Below the pieces are notes generated by a model. That model saw only the letters and a list, made by a program, of their open reading frames with translations. It searched no databases and had not been told where the DNA came from. This document shows positions 19,750 through 36,336 of a DNA stretch of 64,000 nt, piece after piece (position 1 is the stretch's first letter; every line of letters begins with the position of its first letter). Origin of the DNA: Escherichia coli (GTDB taxonomy: Bacteria; Pseudomonadota; Gammaproteobacteria; Enterobacterales; Enterobacteriaceae); assembly GCF_965641715.1 (NCBI RefSeq), contig NZ_OZ282454.1; one strand, written 5' to 3'. The translations under genes were made by a program, and so were the position numbers.

Positions 19750-20100
19750 CTGATGTTTTCAGCCCCCATCATCTGTTGAGTTTCGGGACCCGCCGCAACG
19801 ACGAAGAGCGCGTGCGCGAAACGGCGTTGCCCCTTACATCCCGGCGGCTTTTTGCCGGGATGCAAGGAGCGCAGGCCACGGCGCGACAGAGGCGGCGCGA
19901 CCGGAACGGTCGCTGCAAGCCCGGGGTTTTCACGCATCGGACCGTAGCGACAGCCCGAAACCGCGCCAGCGGGTTCGGCGGAGACTGGCAGGTGCGCCAG
20001 CAGCTGCCTGTCGGAGTCGGGCCTGACGACCGGATGCCGCCAGGCAGCCGGGAGCCGAAGGTGCGCCCGGCAGACAGGACAACACTGCTGTAGTCAGAAT
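19750..20100. repeat. Frpo/ssi-like leading-region repeat, copy A (shorter; lacks the 5' block)
   Basis: about 330 bp near-identical to 25431-25770 and similar to 28750-28890. Confidence 0.7.
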
Positions 20101-20351
20101 CAGAGCAGGAAGAAAAAGAGAATAATCACGGGAAAGGTAATGTCATTTCTGACAACTGACCATAAACAGAGAAGGCGGGGGAAAAGAACGGGCGCCGCAG
20201 GCGCACGTTCATCCCCTTTCCCGAAGGGAAAGCGCCTTCCAGGCAGTCTGGTTGTTCATGCCCGTACAATGCCAGCAAGGAGAAAGGGGCCACCGGCGAA
20301 CCAGCAGCCCCTTTATAAAGGCGCTTCAGTGCAGTCAGACCAGCATCAGCC

Positions 20352-25140: not shown

Positions 25141-25770
25141 TTCAGCCCCCATCATCTGTTGAGTTTCGGGAGCCGCGGTTTTGACGTTTTGCGGGGACCT
25201 GCCTTTTGTTCCCTCCGGTATTCACCATCACCTGTTTGAGAACCTTCGCCGCAAGGGGCATCACTGCCACGGCCGGAAACGACTGTCCGGGGGCAGACCG
25301 CAAAAGTTTTTGCCGGCTTTTGGGCAAAAACTTTTGTGGGATGTGCATTTCACCCCTGGACTGACGGAGACGGTTGTGGCTGTCTTTGCCCCCGGCGACA
25401 GGGGTTCAAACAGGTGCAGGGCACCGGACACAACAACGGGCAGGCACCCGCCGCAACGACGTGAAGCGCGGTTTGCGAAACGGCGTTGCCCTCACATCCC
25501 GGCGGCCTTTTGCCGGGATGCCAGGAGCGCAGGCCACGGCGCGACAGAGGCGGCGCGACCGGAACTGTCGCTGCAAGCCCGGGGTTTTCACGCATCGGAC
25601 CGTAGCGACAGCCCGAAACCGCGCCAGCGGGTTCGGCGGAGACTGGCAGGTGCGCCAGCAGCTGCCTGTCGGAGTCGGGCCTGACGACCGGATGCCGCCA
25701 GGCAGCCGGGAGCCGAAGGTGCGCCCGGCATACAGGACAACACTGCTGTAGTCAGAATCAGAGCAGCAGG
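25141..25770. repeat. Frpo/ssi-like leading-region repeat, copy B (full length, about 630 bp)
   Basis: GC-rich, hairpin-rich; directly upstream of ssb in transcription sense. Confidence 0.7.
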
Positions 25771-25972
25771 AAAAAGAAGAACAGTAGCAGTAGCAGGAAC
25801 AACAACATCAGTAACAGACAAATGACAGGCATGAAGAAACAGAAGCCCCCATCAGAACGTCCGCGTAATGAAAGGGGCGGTGCGTCAGCGCGCCCCCTTT
25901 CAGCGCCACCGGCGCGCGGTCTTTTCCCGGCGCGGGCAGACGGGCATTTATCCTCCCGCCTGCCCTGTGTCA

Positions 25973-28454: not shown

Positions 28455-28895
28455 CATCACCCGTTGAGTTTCGGGAGCCGCGGTTTTGACGTTTCGCGGG
28501 AACCTGCTGCTGTATTCCCTGTGGTATGAACTTCACCCGTTTGAGAACCTTCGCCGCAAGGGGCATCACTGCCACGGCCTGACGCACCTGTCCGGGGCAG
28601 AACGCAAAATTTTTTACCGGGTTCTGGGTAAAAAATTTTGTGGGCTGTTCATTTACCCTGGACAGTCAGTGCGACAGGTTGTGGCTATATGAGCCCCCGG
28701 CGACAGGGACTCATACGGGTGTGTGGCACCCGGCAGGCAATGAGCAGGGACCCGCTGCAACGACGGAGAGCGCGTGCGCGAAACGGCGTTGCCCCTTACA
28801 TCCCGGCGGCCTTTTGCCGGGATGCCAGGAGCGCAGGCCACGGTGCGACAGAGGCGGCGCGACCGTTCCGGTCGCTGCAAGCCGGGGGTTTTCGC
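28455..28895. repeat. Frpo/ssi-like leading-region repeat, copy C
   Basis: shares 5' block (GTTGAGTTTCGGGAGCCGCGGTTTTGACG...) and 3' block with copy B. Confidence 0.7.
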
Positions 28896-28931
28896 GCGGG
28901 CTGACAGGCGGCCTCCACCGCCTACCCTGTA

Positions 28932-32900: not shown

Positions 32901-33635
32901 TTACGCAGCCTCCGGCATAAACCAGTCATCATTCGCGGCCCCCTGCTGCATGGGCCGTTGCACGGCGGCAAGGCGTTGCTGCCCGGCACGGTGATACTGC
33001 TCAAGCAGCTCGATACCGATATACCGGCGTCCGGACTGGAGGGCGGCGACGCAGGTTGAGCCGCTGCCTGCAAACGGGTCCAGCACAATTGCGTTCGGGT
33101 GTGTGAAGCTCTCAATCAGCGGTTACAGGCTGGTAACGGGCTTTTCCGTCGGGTGATGGCGATTGCCCGAATATTTCCAGCCCAGCACGTCCGGCGGCGG
33201 GTTTTGTGGCAGACGTGGACGGCCTTTTGCCAGGATGTAGGCGCATTCGTGGCGATAGCCCACATATGCGGCCTTCGATGTGTAGTTTTTGGTGAAGACC
33301 AGGTGACCAACAACGCTGAATCCCGCATTTTTCCAGGCGGCCATAAAGCGATCGGCGCGGTTCCAGCCGTAGAAGCTGACCATCAGCGCATCTTTTTTGA
33401 GTACGCGGAACATTTCATTACAGGCCGGTTGCAGCCATTCATCGGTTTTATCGCCGGCAATGGTACGCCCTGAACGGTCACGGACCCCCACCAGGTAAGG
33501 CGGGTCGGTAAGTATGAGATCAATGGCGTTATCAGGGATACGGGCCATAACATCGATGCAGTTACCGAGGACAAAACGGGACATAACAACTGTATGAACG
33601 CATCCCCGTTTGCAAGGCATCCGTTGTTCTGACAT
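32901..33635 (-). pseudogene. beta-class DNA methyltransferase interrupted by in-frame ochre (TAA) at 33123-33125
   Basis: upstream ORF has DPPY and ...HHPTEKPVTSL; after TAA the same frame continues PLIESFTHPNAIVLDPFAGSGSTCVAALQ (motif I). Confidence 0.75.
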
Positions 33636-33699
33636 CGACGATTAGTTGCAGCTCTGTATCCGGCCTTATTGCAGCCAGAGCTGCGGGCCACTATGAGAT

Positions 33700-35200
33700 T
33701 CGCTGACCTGAGCCTTATTCTCCTTACGGACTTTATATCCCGGCTGTTATTCAGATTTATCAGGTCACGGTCTTACCTGTCGTTGTCATCACTCGGGCCG
33801 CCAGAGCAACCTTTCAGCATTCACCCTTTTGTTAAGAGTTCATTATTTATCGGTATCAGCGATTAATATGGTCTGATACTGACATGGTTCCTGTCATACT
33901 TACGGTCATGGGCAGCTATCGCCCATACTGTTCGTGCCAGCTTGTTTGCCATGGCGACGATAGCCACACTGGCTGGACGACGTTTTTTCAGTTCGGTTAT
34001 CCACGGACCAGGTTCTTTAGTCAGTAATGCTGCCGCCCTTGCGCCATGAATAAACAGGGTTCGCAGATATGTATCACCACGTTTGCTTATCCCCAGCAGG
34101 CGAATTTTCCCTCCTGAGCCAGTCTGTTTGGGCACCAGACCAACATAAGCCGCGAACTCTCGCCCTGATTTAAACGCTGATGCTTCCCCCATGGTGGCCA
34201 CCGCTGCCGTCGCAATAAGTGGCCCAACACCAGGAATATCCAGCAACCGCTTACAGGTCTCATTCTGTTTCGCCACGCTGGCAAGCTGTTTTTCGATGTC
34301 TTCTATCAGGGAGTCCAGCTCATTCAACCGCTTATACTGGTTTTTCAGTACCGTGATGAGATACGGTGGCAGTCTCTCTTTCATTCGTTCCAGTGCTTCA
34401 GGGAACTCCCGCTCCATTGCTGCCCGACCTTTGTGGATGGTTTCACCAAACTCCAGTAACGTCCCGTGTAGGGCGTTAATTTGTGCGATCCGGAACTTCA
34501 CCAGTTGCATGCGGGTACGGTGCAGAACCAGTACCGACTGCTGTTCTTCTGTTTTGACGGCAATTTCTTTACCGGGCTGCTGAACCGCCATCCAGATAGC
34601 CCGGGCATCCATCACGTCGTTCTTGTTTCCCATGACGAATGCCTTAACGAAGCGGGCCTGTAACAAGCGGACGTTATGCCCCAGCTTTGTCAGCTCCCGT
34701 GCCCAGTGCTGAGAGCCTCCACAGGCCTCCATACCAATCAGGCAGGGTTCCCGGTTGCTGAAATATTCAAGAAAATCTCTGCCACGAAGTTGCTTATCCA
34801 CCACTTCACCTGTGTTCTCATCAATGAAGTGAACCTGAATCAGATGTTTTGCGATATCAACGCCAACCGGTGTATATTTCATTTGTGGAGTCTCCAGTCT
34901 GAGGGAACTTTATGCATCCCGTATTGGGCACAATGATGCCGGAAATCTGCGAGGCTCCACACCTCTCTGATTTCCCCCTTTATTCATCACTGTGCTCCGG
35001 ATTTAATGTTGGGGGATGCGTTCATCTCATTCTCCTTCTCTTACAGAAGACACCGGGAGGGCCCCCCTGTGGTGCCCGTTCCCCGCTGCCTGTGGGTTGT
35101 TCACCGCGTCCGGTAACGGGTCAGGCCGACCGTGGAATATCGCAGCCGTCGTCTTTTTGACGGCGAGAATATGCCGTGAAAGCGGCTTGAAGGGCGTTCA
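33700..35200 (-). mobile_element. IS110-family element (boundaries approximate, not determined)
   Basis: transposase gene plus non-coding flanks; this family lacks clear terminal inverted repeats so ends cannot be fixed by eye. Confidence 0.3.
33863..34882 (-). CDS. IS110-family transposase/recombinase
   Basis: 339 aa; MEACGGS...NKND.MDA (DEDD N-terminal) and LLDIPGVGPLIA...GLVPKQ.GSGGK...GISKRGD C-terminal motifs. Confidence 0.85.
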   Translation of the reverse strand: MKYTPVGVDIAKHLIQVHFIDENTGEVVDKQLRGRDFLEYFSNREPCLIGMEACGGSQHWARELTKLGHNVRLLQARFVKAFVMGNKNDVMDARAIWMAVQQPGKEIAVKTEEQQSVLVLHRTRMQLVKFRIAQINALHGTLLEFGETIHKGRAAMEREFPEALERMKERLPPYLITVLKNQYKRLNELDSLIEDIEKQLASVAKQNETCKRLLDIPGVGPLIATAAVATMGEASAFKSGREFAAYVGLVPKQTGSGGKIRLLGISKRGDTYLRTLFIHGARAAALLTKEPGPWITELKKRRPASVAIVAMANKLARTVWAIAAHDRKYDRNHVSIRPY

Positions 35201-35408
35201 TCAGAAAAGGGCGACAGGCTGGCGTACACTGTCACCGACGCCAGCCGGAAGTGGTAAAGGCGCCCGTCCCGTGCCCGCCGGACGCGGGACACTGACCACA
35301 GGCAGCGTTTATGCCGCGCCGCGTCAGCCGGCGCAGTAAAAAGAGGAGCACGGCGACATCCTTTACCGGAAAAGAAACGGGCGGTTGCCCGCCCGTCTCC
35401 GTCATACT

Positions 35409-36035
35409 TCATCCGCCATAATGCACCACATTGTCGACTATCCACGCAGGTCCGGTGACTTCCGGCAGCTCATCGTCATCTGTCGGGGAAGACCATTCCA
35501 GTTCCCCCCACAGCACATCAACGAGCTCTCCGCGCTCATACAACTGCCAGCCACAGAAATCACAGCCCTGTTCGGCATACCAGTGCTCCAGCGTGCAGCT
35601 GAAACGGCGGCTTAATTCTGCAATAACGTCGCTTTCCGGCTGACACCACGGAGTGTCGAAATCAACCTGAATGAAGTTGTCTCCCTGACTACTGATATTC
35701 ACCTCATACCCCACAGGCCACTTCACGCCATACCGTTCCGTATACCAGTGATATGCAGAAGGAACACCGTTCAGAACACCACCGTTAAAGCCATTCACTT
35801 CAACATCCAGGCGGGTCGGCAGAACCGTCAGCAGGTCAAACGGCATGGTATTTTCCGGCAGTACGTTGTCACACAGACGGTTCCACCACACCGATACATC
35901 CTCGTTACTCCAGAAGCCACACCAGTCACCTCTTTTTGCGGTGAAAAGTGCGGTGATGGTATCCCTGACATCGTCCGGTAATCCTTCCCAGCGACGCTGT
36001 CCAGTACCGCTCTGCAGCCAGAGTTCATGCAGCAT
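35409..36035 (-). CDS. hypothetical acidic Trp/Cys-rich protein
   Basis: ORF 35409-36302; start placed at internal Met (MLHELW...) because upstream part overlaps umuD-like remnant on opposite strand; hairpin terminator after stop. Confidence 0.4.
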   Translation of the reverse strand: MLHELWLQSGTGQRRWEGLPDDVRDTITALFTAKRGDWCGFWSNEDVSVWWNRLCDNVLPENTMPFDLLTVLPTRLDVEVNGFNGGVLNGVPSAYHWYTERYGVKWPVGYEVNISSQGDNFIQVDFDTPWCQPESDVIAELSRRFSCTLEHWYAEQGCDFCGWQLYERGELVDVLWGELEWSSPTDDDELPEVTGPAWIVDNVVHYGG

Positions 36036-36094
36036 CAGGCAGTTTTGCTCATCCAGCAGTACACCGTCCTGCACAGCCAGCGGTGAATCGATGA

Positions 36095-36336
36095 ACCAGG
36101 CTGGCGTGCAGAATGGTGATCTGCTGGTAGTGGACAGGGCCGAAAAACCACAACACGGGGACATCGTTATCGCTGAGATCGACGGGGAGTTCACCGTCAA
36201 ACGACAGCTGTTGCGCCCACGCCCGGCACTGGAGCCGGTTTCAGACAGCCCGGAGTTCCGCACACTGTATCCGGAAAACATCTGTATTTTTGGTGTTGTC
36301 ACTCACGTGATACACAGGACGCGGGAGTTATGCTGA
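36095..36336 (+). pseudogene. UmuD/MucA-like (S24 peptidase) gene, 5'-truncated
   Basis: C-terminal part ...SGESM...GDLLVVDRA...HGDIVIAEIDGEFTVKRL...FGVVTHVIH matches UmuD'; N-terminal region absent. Confidence 0.6.

What the first reader, a model, noticed from the sequence alone, without database searches (positions are those of the whole stretch)
33636..35408. IS110-family element with long structured non-coding flank: candidate bridge/guide RNA locus
The 339 aa recombinase has IS110-type DEDD and C-terminal motifs. About 500 bp of GC-rich, hairpin-rich non-coding DNA lies upstream (34883-35400) and about 220 bp downstream (33636-33862). In IS110/IS1111 elements such flanks encode the bridge RNA that programs target and donor recognition. 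Element ends and insertion site could not be fixed by eye.
Basis: partly seen in the sequence, partly recalled or inferred. Interest (0 to 1): 0.5.

Follow-up and report, generated by a model that had tools for sequence, protein, structure and literature searches.

The report
ISEc11-like IS with downstream bridge RNA
This is an intact jumping gene of a known RNA-guided kind (IS1111 group), and its guide RNA lies downstream of the recombinase gene, not in the long upstream flank; it is ordinary as a system, but it has landed exactly between the ribosome-binding site and the start codon of a plasmid DNA-methylase gene, as its relatives do at other genes.

Summary
The 339-aa ORF is a real IS110-family recombinase. 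The element is a 1,442-bp IS1111-group insertion sequence (window 33592-35033, minus strand) with perfect 14-bp subterminal inverted repeats. It is 88% identical in DNA, and 93.8% in protein, to ISEc11, whose seekRNA has been studied experimentally.

Only 149 bp belongs to the IS. The other ~375 bp (35034-35408, 63% GC) is plasmid backbone found in over 4,600 plasmids without the IS.

The guide RNA lies downstream of the recombinase gene, at 33642-33780. A covariance model built only from relatives hits the window once, there (133.5 bits, E 4e-32). Its helices show compensatory changes: 98% of cells paired, 12 pairs changed on both sides.

Two internal loops carry four guide segments. ATAACAGC and AAGGAG(AAT) match the target flanks. 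ATCTCAT and ATACAG match the IS ends. All four co-vary with flanks or ends across 27 relatives.

The IS sits between the Shine-Dalgarno AAGGAG and the ATG of a leading-region DNA methylase gene, which is truncated here. Other copies of this IS (allB, fdrA, mtnK and others), and most relatives, also sit between a ribosome-binding site and a start codon.

It is a new member of a known kind.

The parts
33592..35033 (-). The whole insertion sequence, 1,442 bp, with the left copy of the AG core counted as part of the IS (the convention used for ISEc11).
   Evidence: Empty site in L004 reads GAGAAGGAG|CGTTGTTATG. Homology to ISEc66 and ISEc11 starts and stops at these ends. Backbone homology stops at 35032.
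35032..35033 (-). Left copy of the core dinucleotide AG. It is also the last two bases of the host Shine-Dalgarno sequence AAGGAG (35032-35037).
   Evidence: AG is the only sequence shared by both junctions when they are compared with the empty site.
33590..33591 (-). Right copy of the core dinucleotide AG, which belongs to the target side.
35026..35031 (-). Left terminal extension AATGAG. Together with the next base it forms ATGAGAT, the right-donor sequence read by the guide ATCTCAT.
35012..35025 (-). Left subterminal inverted repeat, ATGAACGCATCCCC.
   Evidence: Perfect 14-nt inverted repeat with 33594-33607.
34883..35011 (-). Structured 5' leader of the recombinase gene. A long-range helix pairs GTGGAG (34955-34960) with CTCCAC (34885-34890), next to the recombinase Shine-Dalgarno GGAG (34892-34895).
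   Evidence: RNA fold z = -4.0. Compensatory variants are visible in the alignment of relatives, but this helix was not tested formally.
33863..34882 (-). Recombinase (transposase) gene, 339 aa, intact.
   Evidence: It is 93.8% aa identical to TnpEc11 and TnpEc66.
33642..33780 (-). Bridge RNA / long seekRNA gene: a 5' mini-hairpin, a target-binding stem-loop and a donor-binding stem-loop.
   Evidence: A covariance model built without the window sequence matches here only, at 133.5 bits, E 4e-32. The consensus structure is supported by covariation.
33743..33750 (-). Right target guide ATAACAGC, on the 5' side of the target loop. [quoted passage not shown]
33717..33726 (-). Left target guide TAAGGAGAAT, on the 3' side of the target loop. 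It has the same sequence as the top strand of the left target AAGG, the core AG and the first three IS bases AAT.
33728..33741 (-). Apical hairpin S2 of the target-binding stem-loop.
   Evidence: Three of its 4 pairs show changes on both sides.
33705..33766 (-). Target-binding stem-loop closed by helix S1 (GACCTGA at 33760-33766 paired with TCAGGTC at 33705-33711).
   Evidence: All 7 pairs of S1 show changes on both sides among the 27 sequences.
33693..33699 (-). Right donor guide ATCTCAT, complementary to the IS left end ATGAGAT.
   Evidence: It co-varies with the left end in relatives: ATGTAAT/ATTACAT, ATGTCAT/ATGACAT, ATGAAAT/ATTTCAT, ATAAGAT/ATCTTAT.
33652..33659 (-). Left donor guide ATACAGAG, which has the same sequence as the IS right end ATAC plus the core AG.
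   Evidence: It co-varies with the right end in relatives: ACAG, ATAA, ATAG, ATAAG.
33662..33689 (-). Apical helix S4 (GGCC/GGCC) and inner hairpin of the donor-binding stem-loop.
33610..33615 (-). TTGCAA, a candidate -35 box of a promoter that is completed only when the ends are joined. In the circle it reads TTGCAA-N17-CAGAAT; in the integrated state it reads TTGCAA-N17-CAGTTG.
   Evidence: Read directly from the sequence. A junction promoter was shown for ISEc11 (PMC11187229). Not tested here.
33594..33607 (-). Right subterminal inverted repeat, GGGGATGCGTTCAT, followed by the 2-nt extension AC (33592-33593).
33123..33584 (-). The target gene, a leading-region orphan DNA methylase. The IS separates it from its Shine-Dalgarno sequence, and here it is truncated to 153 codons. 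The remainder of the gene is at 32901-33086.
   Evidence: Matches NCBIfam NF010253 over profile positions 1-153 of 226. The intact gene is 227 aa in L001 and L004.
35034..35408 (.). Not part of the IS. This is a conserved, GC-rich, structured plasmid backbone spacer between the DUF1281 gene and the methylase gene, including an imperfect long inverted repeat (35084-35113 with 35278-35307).

Best explanation
The feature is an intact IS1111-group insertion sequence of the IS110 family. It is a close but distinct relative of ISEc11 and ISEc66. It moves by RNA-guided, site-specific recombination.

Parts:
- The element encodes a DEDD recombinase.
- Downstream of that gene it encodes a ~140-nt structured RNA (33642-33780).
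- The first internal loop of the RNA carries two guides for the target. ATAACAGC pairs with the top strand to the right of the crossover. AAGGAG(AAT) pairs with the bottom strand to the left.
- The second internal loop carries two guides for the element's own ends, ATCTCAT and ATACAG(AG).
- Crossover happens at the dinucleotide AG.

By analogy with ISEc11 and IS621, the element excises as a circle. Joining the ends completes a promoter (TTGCAA-N17-CAGAAT) that drives the recombinase gene and the RNA. The RNA-protein complex then inserts the circle at sites of the form AAGG-AG-(0-2 nt)-CTGTTATG.

In this window that site is the translation start region of a DNA methylase gene in the plasmid's leading region. 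The insertion removes the gene's ribosome-binding site, and the gene has since decayed.

Shown here: the ends, the repeats, the RNA structure, and the guide-to-target and guide-to-end complementarity with covariation.

Inferred from relatives, not shown here: that the RNA is expressed, that it binds the protein, that a circle forms, and that the promoter works.
For: Family and ends:
- Recombinase domains and motif are present.
- The subterminal inverted repeats are a perfect 14 bp.
- Non-coding DNA is 272 bp downstream against 149 bp upstream.
- Comparison with an empty site fixes the insertion point and the AG core.
- The element is 88% nt identical to ISEc11 and ISEc66 over its whole length. 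Its recombinase is 93.8% aa identical to both.
- The downstream region of L005 is the very ISEc11 non-coding sequence used in the seekRNA experiments. In ISEc11 this region is essential, and RNAs of 82 and 154 nt co-purify with the transposase.

RNA:
- In a 27-sequence alignment, 98% of cells are paired, against 27-45% when the partners are slid.
- 12 of 24 pairs show changes on both sides, and 0 of 500 shuffles reach the observed values.
- A covariance model built from 24 relatives, excluding the window and its two near-copies, hits the 64-kb window once, at 33642-33780 (133.5 bits, E 4e-32).

Guides:
- The ISEc11 guides CAGTATTTT and GTGAAAAT reproduce its published target GTGAAAATACTG.
- Across 21 elements, the longest exact match of a guide to its own flank averages 7.2 nt (right) and 7.3 nt (left). 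Against non-cognate flanks it averages 3.3 and 4.1 nt.
- L005 and L006 differ by one guide base, and their targets differ by the complementary base.
- The donor guides co-vary with both IS ends.

Activity:
- Copies of this IS with >=98.5% identical recombinase sit at more than 10 different loci, all of the form ..AAGG-AG|IS|AG-N0-2-CTGTTATG.
Against: - No expression data are available for this element.
- Rfam has no family that matches the region.
- In ISEc11 the short 82-nt RNA was enough for transposition of a mini-IS. By length, that RNA corresponds to the 5' hairpin plus the target loop only, although its exact boundaries were not recovered from the paper. So the donor-binding loop may not be required, and the ends may be recognised mainly through the inverted repeats. 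The authors say the role of the long RNA is not established.
- In the window's own copy the right target reads TTGTTAT, one mismatch from the guide.
- Across natural sites the distance between the core and CTGTTAT varies by 0-2 nt. A fixed-register duplex of the IS621 type does not predict this.
- The downstream flank folded as a whole is not unusually stable (z = -0.9).
Confidence: 0.85

Rival explanations
1. The guide RNA is encoded in the long upstream flank (34883-35400), as in IS110-group elements such as IS621.
For: - The upstream IS leader folds well (z = -4.0).
- The adjacent backbone is also highly structured (z = -4.1).
- IS110-group elements do keep their bridge RNA upstream of the recombinase gene.
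Against: - 35034-35408 is present in more than 4,600 plasmids that lack the IS.
- The covariance model finds nothing there.
- The element has the IS1111 hallmarks: 14-bp subterminal repeats and a longer downstream non-coding region.
- All four guide segments lie downstream.
- The conserved helix in the 149-bp leader pairs with the region next to the recombinase ribosome-binding site. That looks like translational control rather than a guide.
Confidence: 0.03
2. The downstream RNA acts only as a target seeker: the short ~80-nt seekRNA, made of the 5' hairpin plus the target loop. The ends of the element are recognised by the protein through the subterminal inverted repeats. The second stem-loop serves processing, stability or regulation rather than donor pairing.
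For: - In ISEc11 the 82-nt RNA alone supported 42% transposition of a mini-IS whose ends (50 and 46 bp) do not include the second stem-loop.
- The authors state that the long RNA's role is unknown and that IS1111 mechanisms may differ from IS110 mechanisms.
Against: - The two segments of the second loop co-vary with the left and right ends. There are at least five left-end variants and four right-end variants. That is hard to explain without base pairing.
- Durrant et al. predict donor-binding nucleotides in the right ends of IS1111 elements.
Confidence: 0.2
3. The element is an inactive relic, and the conserved downstream structure is only a leftover.
For: Several relatives are decayed: L007, L008 and L009 have broken recombinase genes.
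Against: - The ORF is intact, the repeats are perfect and all guides are present.
- The identical recombinase sequence is indexed in 399 blocks of the public assembly collection; in the 10 places shown it sits at the same methylase site as in the window.
- Copies with 98.5-99.4% identical recombinase occupy more than 10 different loci, up to 8 places in one genome record.
Confidence: 0.05
4. The structured GC-rich DNA at 35034-35408 is a single-strand DNA promoter (Frpo/ssi type) of the plasmid leading region. On this reading it drives the methylase operon, and now also the IS, on entry into a recipient cell.
For: - It lies in the leading region, upstream of a methylase gene.
- Its transferred strand folds far better than shuffles (z = -4.1), with a ~225-nt hairpin.
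- Leading-region methylases and Frpo-like promoters are common.
Against: - It has no similarity to the three Frpo-type repeats of the same window at about 19.8, 25.4 and 28.7 kb.
- No -35/-10 pair was found on either strand of 35032-35408.
Confidence: 0.15

Closest known systems
ISEc11 (IS1111 group; seekRNA shown experimentally by Siddiquee et al. 2024, PMC11187229)
   Same: - Same size (1,442 vs 1,443 bp) and a 339-aa recombinase that is 93.8% identical.
- Same subterminal repeats.
- Same RNA scaffold, with the top-strand-matching guide 5' of the bottom-strand-matching guide.
- Same -35 box next to the right repeat.
   Different: - Only 88% nt identical, so it is a different IS by the usual naming practice.
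- All four guide segments differ.
- Its target is AAGG-AG-CTGTTATG, against GTGAAAATACTG for ISEc11.
- Its core reads AG, and its left extension is AATGAG against AATGTA.
ISEc66
   Same: - 88.9% nt and 93.8% aa identity, with the same architecture.
- The copy examined also sits between an AGGA-type ribosome-binding site and an ATG.
   Different: - Different guides (AATAATTCTT and CACAGGAAAT).
- Different end variants (ATGTAAT and ATATAA).
IS621 bridge RNA (IS110 group; Durrant et al. 2024, PMC11208160)
   Same: - A two-loop RNA.
- Each loop has one segment matching the bottom strand left of the core and one matching the top strand right of the core.
- The core is a dinucleotide.
- A promoter is completed across the joined ends.
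   Different: - The RNA lies downstream of the recombinase gene, not upstream.
- The order of the guides in each loop is reversed (right guide first).
- The subterminal repeats are long.
- The distance between the core and the right target varies by 0-2 nt in natural sites.
- The need for the donor loop is unproven.
ISKpn4 / ISPst6 / ISPa25 (attC-targeting), ISPa11 (REP-targeting) and IS4321/IS5075 (Tn21 inverted-repeat-targeting), all IS1111 members
   Same: - Same family.
- RNA-programmed choice of one short site.
- The downstream non-coding region of ISKpn4 contains the same AAGGCCGGATA...GCAACC motif that flanks the left donor guide here.
   Different: Those elements target repeated, potentially folded DNA elements. 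This element and most of its clade target unique translation start regions of protein-coding genes.

Membership tests
IS1111 group of the IS110 family | N-terminal DEDD (RuvC-like) recombinase domain | tested here: met
   PF01548 matches residues 6-144 at E 1.6e-10. NF033542 matches at E 3e-98, 329 bits against a cut-off of 140.
IS1111 group of the IS110 family | C-terminal Transposase_20 domain with the motif GL-P----S/TG | tested here: met
   PF02371 matches residues 210-285 at E 1.3e-21. GLVPKQTGSG is at residue 248. The motif is as defined in PMC11187229.
IS1111 group of the IS110 family | Subterminal inverted repeats of 7-17 bp set a few bases in from each end | tested here: met
   Perfect 14-bp repeat at 35012-25 and 33594-607. 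It lies 6 (+2 core) nt from the left end and 2 nt from the right end.
IS1111 group of the IS110 family | The longer non-coding region lies downstream of the recombinase gene | tested here: met
   272 bp downstream against 149 bp upstream.
IS1111 group of the IS110 family | Orientation-specific insertion at one short sequence, without a target duplication beyond the shared core | tested here: met
   Comparison of the empty and occupied sites. More than 10 independent loci share the same pattern and orientation.
IS1111 group of the IS110 family | Circular intermediate with abutted ends that creates a promoter | not testable with these tools
   The sequence allows TTGCAA-N17-CAGAAT only after the ends are joined. 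This was shown for ISEc11.
Bridge RNA / seekRNA | A structured RNA gene in the long non-coding end, conserved among relatives | tested here: met
   RNAalifold and pair counts. The independent covariance model hit.
Bridge RNA / seekRNA | An internal loop with one segment matching each strand of the target, meeting at the insertion point | tested here: met
   Cognate matches average 7.2 and 7.3 nt against 3.3 and 4.1 nt for non-cognate pairs.
Bridge RNA / seekRNA | A second loop whose segments match the two ends of the element (donor) | tested here: met
   The complementarity is present and co-varies. Its functional need is unproven for this clade.
Bridge RNA / seekRNA | The RNA is transcribed, bound by the recombinase and required for movement | not testable with these tools
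   Shown for ISEc11, which has the same scaffold. No data exist for this element.
Bridge RNA / seekRNA | Match to a curated RNA family | tested here: inconclusive
   No Rfam 15 family matches 33300-35800 even at E <= 10. The library appears to hold no model that covers this RNA.
ISEc11 or ISEc66 (same IS, an isoform) | Near-identity in DNA and protein to the named IS | tested here: not met
   88.3-88.9% nt and 93.8% aa identity. NCBI names this protein only 'IS110 family (RNA-guided) transposase', while it names relatives ISEc11 or ISEc66. ISfinder could not be queried.
Frpo/ssi single-strand promoter (considered for 35034-35408) | Sequence similarity to known Frpo elements | tested here: not met
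   No similarity to the window's own Frpo-type repeats.
Frpo/ssi single-strand promoter (considered for 35034-35408) | -35 and -10 hexamers rebuilt in a stable hairpin of the transferred strand | tested here: not met
   A stable hairpin is present (z = -4.1), but the region has no hexamer pair.

The most novel reading that the evidence does not exclude
This IS belongs to a wide clade of IS1111-type elements, found in Enterobacterales, Xenorhabdus/Photorhabdus, Caballeronia and Comamonadaceae. Their programmable guides have repeatedly evolved to recognise translation start regions: a Shine-Dalgarno-like left target and a right target ending in the AT of an ATG. The insertion is always in the same direction as the gene.

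Such a site places a promoter-less element directly behind a host promoter and ribosome-binding site. The element's own ATG (inside the left repeat) then sits 6 nt after the host AAGGAG. This would capture host transcription for the recombinase gene and the downstream guide RNA, while silencing the target gene.

In this plasmid the captured site is an orphan methylase gene in the leading region. The element could therefore be switched on during entry into a new host.

Natural sites also point to recognition rules beyond the published model:
- a 0-2 nt slack between the core and the right target;
- a second motif, TC-N-GT, 5-13 nt upstream of the left target.
Probability: 0.35. Interest if true: 0.6.

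Novelty: new member of a known kind. Interest (0 to 1): 0.35.

Why it matters
As a system it is expected. Bridge or seek RNAs are predicted in about 93% of IS1111 elements, and a relative with 93.8% protein identity has been studied at the bench.

Its value lies in three points:
- It is a clean natural example of retargeting. The scaffold is the same as in ISEc11, but all four guides have changed, with more than 10 natural sites to read the rules from.
- Those sites show features that the published rules do not cover: variable register on the right side and an extra upstream motif.
- The clade's habit of landing between a ribosome-binding site and a start codon would explain how a promoter-less IS gets expressed. 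It also means that these elements silence specific genes. Here the silenced gene is a leading-region orphan methylase, a kind of gene thought to protect incoming plasmids from restriction, so the insertion may change how well the plasmid establishes in new hosts.

For annotation, it shows that the methylase 'ORF' starting at 33635 is an artefact of the IS end.

Tried and rejected
- Rfam gave nothing relevant, at gathering thresholds over the whole window or at E <= 10 over 33300-35800.
- Folding the whole 286-nt downstream flank gave no signal (z = -0.9). The structure appeared only after aligning relatives.
- My first by-eye right target guide (AACAACG at about 33622-33628) was wrong. The alignment shows it is part of a conserved scaffold near the right repeat. 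The true guide is ATAACAGC at 33743-33750.
- The upstream backbone was tested as an Frpo-type element. It shows no similarity and no hexamer pair.
- A conserved leader peptide starting at the ATG inside the left repeat is rejected. Only the first 3-4 codons, which the repeat itself encodes, are conserved, and the lengths range from 6 to 50 codons.
- A metagenome scan with the left-end 26-mer gave only two loci.
- An exact-protein look-up with the window's own recombinase returned only the same methylase site. The two close variants were needed to find other sites.
- A literature search found no paper linking IS1111/IS110 elements with Shine-Dalgarno or start-codon targeting. This covers only the open-access library that was searched.
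Full report
CONTEXT. The window is the leading and transfer region of an F-like conjugative plasmid. Rfam finds the traJ 5' UTR and FinP at 16.7 kb and sok at 20.5 kb. Three Frpo-type repeat units lie at about 19.8, 25.4 and 28.7 kb. The genes around the finding are a DUF1281 gene (35409-36302, -), a DNA methylase (-) and umuDC-like genes.

CHECK OF THE OBSERVATION. The 339-aa ORF at 33863-34882 (-) is a genuine IS110-family recombinase. It matches NF033542 at 3e-98, PF01548 at 1.6e-10 and PF02371 at 1.3e-21, and it carries the motif GLVPKQTGSG.
- A search with 35000-35420 matched at least 5,000 plasmid records, 4,689 of them over at least 80% of the query. Homology always ends at 35032.
- An IS-free plasmid (L004) reads ...GTAAGAGAAGGAG|CGTTGTTATGTCCCG... 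across the site.
- So of the '500 bp upstream', only 149 bp is IS. The remainder, 35034-35408, is a 63% GC backbone spacer.
- The methylase truly starts at 33584: the NCBIfam match begins at residue 18 of the ORF, and annotated homologues start at MSRF. The downstream non-coding flank is therefore 272 bp, and all of it is IS.
- Both upstream parts fold better than shuffles (z = -4.0 and -4.1). The downstream flank folded as a whole does not (z = -0.9).

WHAT THE ELEMENT IS. Plasmid and E. coli searches show whole-length relatives at 88-89% identity that NCBI names ISEc66 and ISEc11.
- The element has a perfect 14-bp subterminal inverted repeat, ATGAACGCATCCCC, at 35012-35025 and 33594-33607.
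- The left extension is AATGAG and the right extension is AC.
- The only bases shared by both junctions, compared with the empty site, are AG.
- With one AG included, the IS spans 33592-35033 (1,442 bp).
- Long subterminal repeats and a longer downstream non-coding region define the IS1111 group. In that group the bridge/seek RNA lies downstream of the recombinase gene.
- The recombinase is 93.8% identical to those of ISEc11 and ISEc66.
- The downstream region of the ISEc11 copy I fetched (L005) is the same sequence listed as the ISEc11 non-coding region in the supplement of the seekRNA paper.

THE RNA. I aligned the right ends of nine plasmid copies and then of 27 elements. The larger set included relatives with 52-88% aa identity from Xenorhabdus, Photorhabdus, Caballeronia, Affinibrenneria and Comamonadaceae genomes. 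The alignment shows a conserved scaffold interrupted by four short variable blocks.

RNAalifold gives this structure:
- a 5' mini-hairpin;
- a stem-loop (helices S1 and S1b, an internal loop and apical hairpin S2);
- a second stem-loop (S3, an internal loop, then S4 with an inner hairpin).

On this structure 98% of cells pair, against 27-45% when the partners are slid. Twelve of 24 pairs change on both sides, including all seven pairs of S1. No shuffle out of 500 reaches the observed values. A covariance model built from 24 relatives only, without the window and its two near-copies, hits the 64-kb window once, at 33642-33780 (-), with 133.5 bits and E 4e-32. It finds nothing in the upstream flank.

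THE GUIDES. In ISEc11 the first loop reads CAGTATTTT on its 5' side and GTGAAAAT on its 3' side. These are the reverse complement and the sense of its published target GTGAAAATACTG, in the published order.

In the window the same positions read:
- ATAACAGC (33743-33750), the reverse complement of GCTGTTAT;
- TAAGGAGAAT (33717-33726), the same sequence as AAGG + AG + AAT at the left junction.

The second loop reads:
- ATCTCAT (33693-33699), the reverse complement of the left end ATGAGAT;
- ATACAGAG (33652-33659), the same sequence as the right end ATAC + AG.

Evidence that these are real guides:
- Over 21 elements with both flanks, the longest exact match between a guide and its own flank averages 7.2 nt (right) and 7.3 nt (left). 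For non-cognate pairs it averages 3.3 +/- 1.1 and 4.1 +/- 1.2 nt.
- L005 and L006 differ by one guide base (C/G), and their right flanks differ by the complementary base.
- The donor segments follow the ends through at least five left-end variants (ATGAGAT, ATGTAAT, ATGTCAT, ATGAAAT, ATAAGAT) and four right-end variants (ACAG, ATAA, ATAG, ATAAG).

By length, the 5' hairpin plus the first stem-loop is about 80 nt and the whole RNA about 140-150 nt. These lengths correspond to the 82-nt and 154-nt RNAs that co-purify with TnpEc11. That correspondence is my inference from lengths, because the exact boundaries were not recovered from the paper.

TARGET AND CONSEQUENCES. The IS sits between the Shine-Dalgarno AAGGAG (35032-35037) and the ATG (33582-33584) of the leading-region methylase gene, in the same orientation as the gene. 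No purine-rich stretch replaces the lost ribosome-binding site. The gene is truncated to 153 codons here and to 157 in L003, but it is intact (227 aa) in L001 and in IS-free plasmids.

Copies of the same IS (recombinase at least 98.5% identical) occur immediately upstream of the start codons of allB, fdrA, mtnK, a DUF551 prophage gene and several other ORFs. They also occur at six sequence variants of the methylase site. All of these sites read [A/G]A[A/G]G-AG | IS | AG-N0-2-(C/T)TGTTATG. The element is therefore active and specific.

The joined ends would read TTGCAA-N17-CAGAAT. The integrated right end reads TTGCAA-N17-CAGTTG. This is consistent with the junction-dependent promoter shown for ISEc11.

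BEYOND THE FINDING. In 21 of 24 non-redundant sites of this IS and its relatives, an ATG lies 4-12 nt after the right repeat. Most of those ATGs open a long ORF or an annotated gene, such as umuC in Pantoea and vapB. The left flank usually ends in GGAG, AGGA or GAGG. Chance would give roughly 13% per site for an ATG in such a stretch.

The position of the ATG inside the right target differs between elements. In most of them the G faces a non-pairing A of the guide. So this preference is not a fixed scaffold requirement. I found no mention of it in the papers searched.

Two further points are unexplained:
- The 0-2 nt slack between the core and CTGTTAT.
- A TC-N-GT(A/T) motif 5-13 nt upstream of the core in 7-8 of 11 distinct left flanks.

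RESERVATIONS. Expression, protein binding, circle formation and promoter activity are inferred from ISEc11 and IS621, not shown here. In ISEc11 the short RNA without the second loop sufficed in a mini-IS assay. The donor-pairing role of the second loop therefore rests on covariation alone. The idea that the GC-rich backbone spacer is a single-strand promoter that would fire the IS on conjugative entry failed both simple tests, similarity and hexamer pair, and remains speculation.

VERDICT. This is a real, intact IS1111-group element with a well-supported downstream bridge/seek RNA. It is a new member of a known kind.

Noticed in passing
window 33582-33591 and 35032-35037; loci L007, L008, L009, L013-L045, L057-L092: This IS and most of its clade (21 of 24 non-redundant sites) sit between a Shine-Dalgarno-like sequence and the ATG of a real ORF, always in the same direction as the ORF. 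Examples are the methylase, allB, fdrA, mtnK, umuC and vapB. The papers searched do not mention this.
   Followed up: partly
left flanks of L057, L059, L060, L061, L079, L082, L091; window 35042-35047: A second motif, TC-N-GT(A/T), lies 5-13 nt upstream of the core in 7-8 of 11 independent target sites of this IS. It has the same sequence as RNA UCCGUA (the hairpin S2 3' strand plus the start of the left target guide). In its TCTGTA(T) form it is complementary to the left donor guide. I have no explanation.
   Followed up: partly
right junctions in window 33582-33591 and L001, L003, L057-L091: The distance between the AG core and the guide-matched CTGTTAT is 0, 1 or 2 nt in different natural sites. 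The G of the ATG is invariant even though it faces a non-pairing A of the guide.
   Followed up: partly
window 32901-33584 (-): The methylase gene downstream of the IS is broken. It runs 153 codons to a stop at 33123, with the C-terminal part as a separate ORF at 32901-33086. It is also truncated in L003 (157 codons) but intact (227 aa) in L001.
   Followed up: partly
L003 834-2500, equivalent to window position 35176/35177: In plasmid pRHB06-C20_2 a second, unrelated IS110-family element is inserted inside the GC-rich backbone spacer, in tandem with this IS. It is about 1.67 kb, encodes a 338-aa recombinase and has a ~545-bp downstream non-coding region. In the first search CP055625 also loses homology with the window from about 35182.
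   Followed up: partly
window 35034-35408: This is a conserved 63% GC spacer with an imperfect long inverted repeat (35084-35113 with 35278-35307). The transferred strand folds at z = -4.1. A terminator-like hairpin (35055-35067, -) lies just before the methylase ribosome-binding site. A 103-114 aa arginine-rich 'hypothetical protein' is annotated over it in some records and is probably not a real gene. Its function is unknown. It is not similar to Frpo.
   Followed up: partly
window 19767-20119, 25150-25777, 28455-28897: Three copies of a repeated unit lie here. The first two are 5,658 bp apart, which matches the description of Frpo1 and Frpo2 of the F plasmid (about 5 kb apart, flanking the hok/sok-type locus). 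A third copy lies 3.3 kb further on.
   Followed up: no
window 34885-34890 with 34955-34960: A long-range helix in the IS leader (GTGGAG with CTCCAC) lies next to the recombinase Shine-Dalgarno sequence. Relatives keep it with compensatory variants: GTGGATCC/GGATCCAC, GTGGCTCC/GGAGCCAC and GGATCCTC/GAGGATCC. It is probably a translational control of the recombinase gene.
   Followed up: partly
window 35012-35037: After insertion, the host AAGGAG lies 6 nt upstream of the ATG inside the left repeat, which opens a 12-codon ORF (MNASPNIKSGAQ). The ATG is conserved in all relatives because it is part of the repeat, but the peptide is not conserved.
   Followed up: yes
L058/L089, L075, L092: Some copies have mixed flanks: the allW-side left flank with an fdrA right flank, the allW-side left flank with a plasmid methylase right flank, and another left flank with the methylase right flank. 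These suggest deletions or plasmid-chromosome fusions by recombination between IS copies, or else assembly errors.
   Followed up: no
window 33592-35033; records: Recent NCBI annotation already calls this protein 'IS110 family RNA-guided transposase'. No record seen annotates the RNA itself, and Rfam 15 has no model that matches it.
   Followed up: yes
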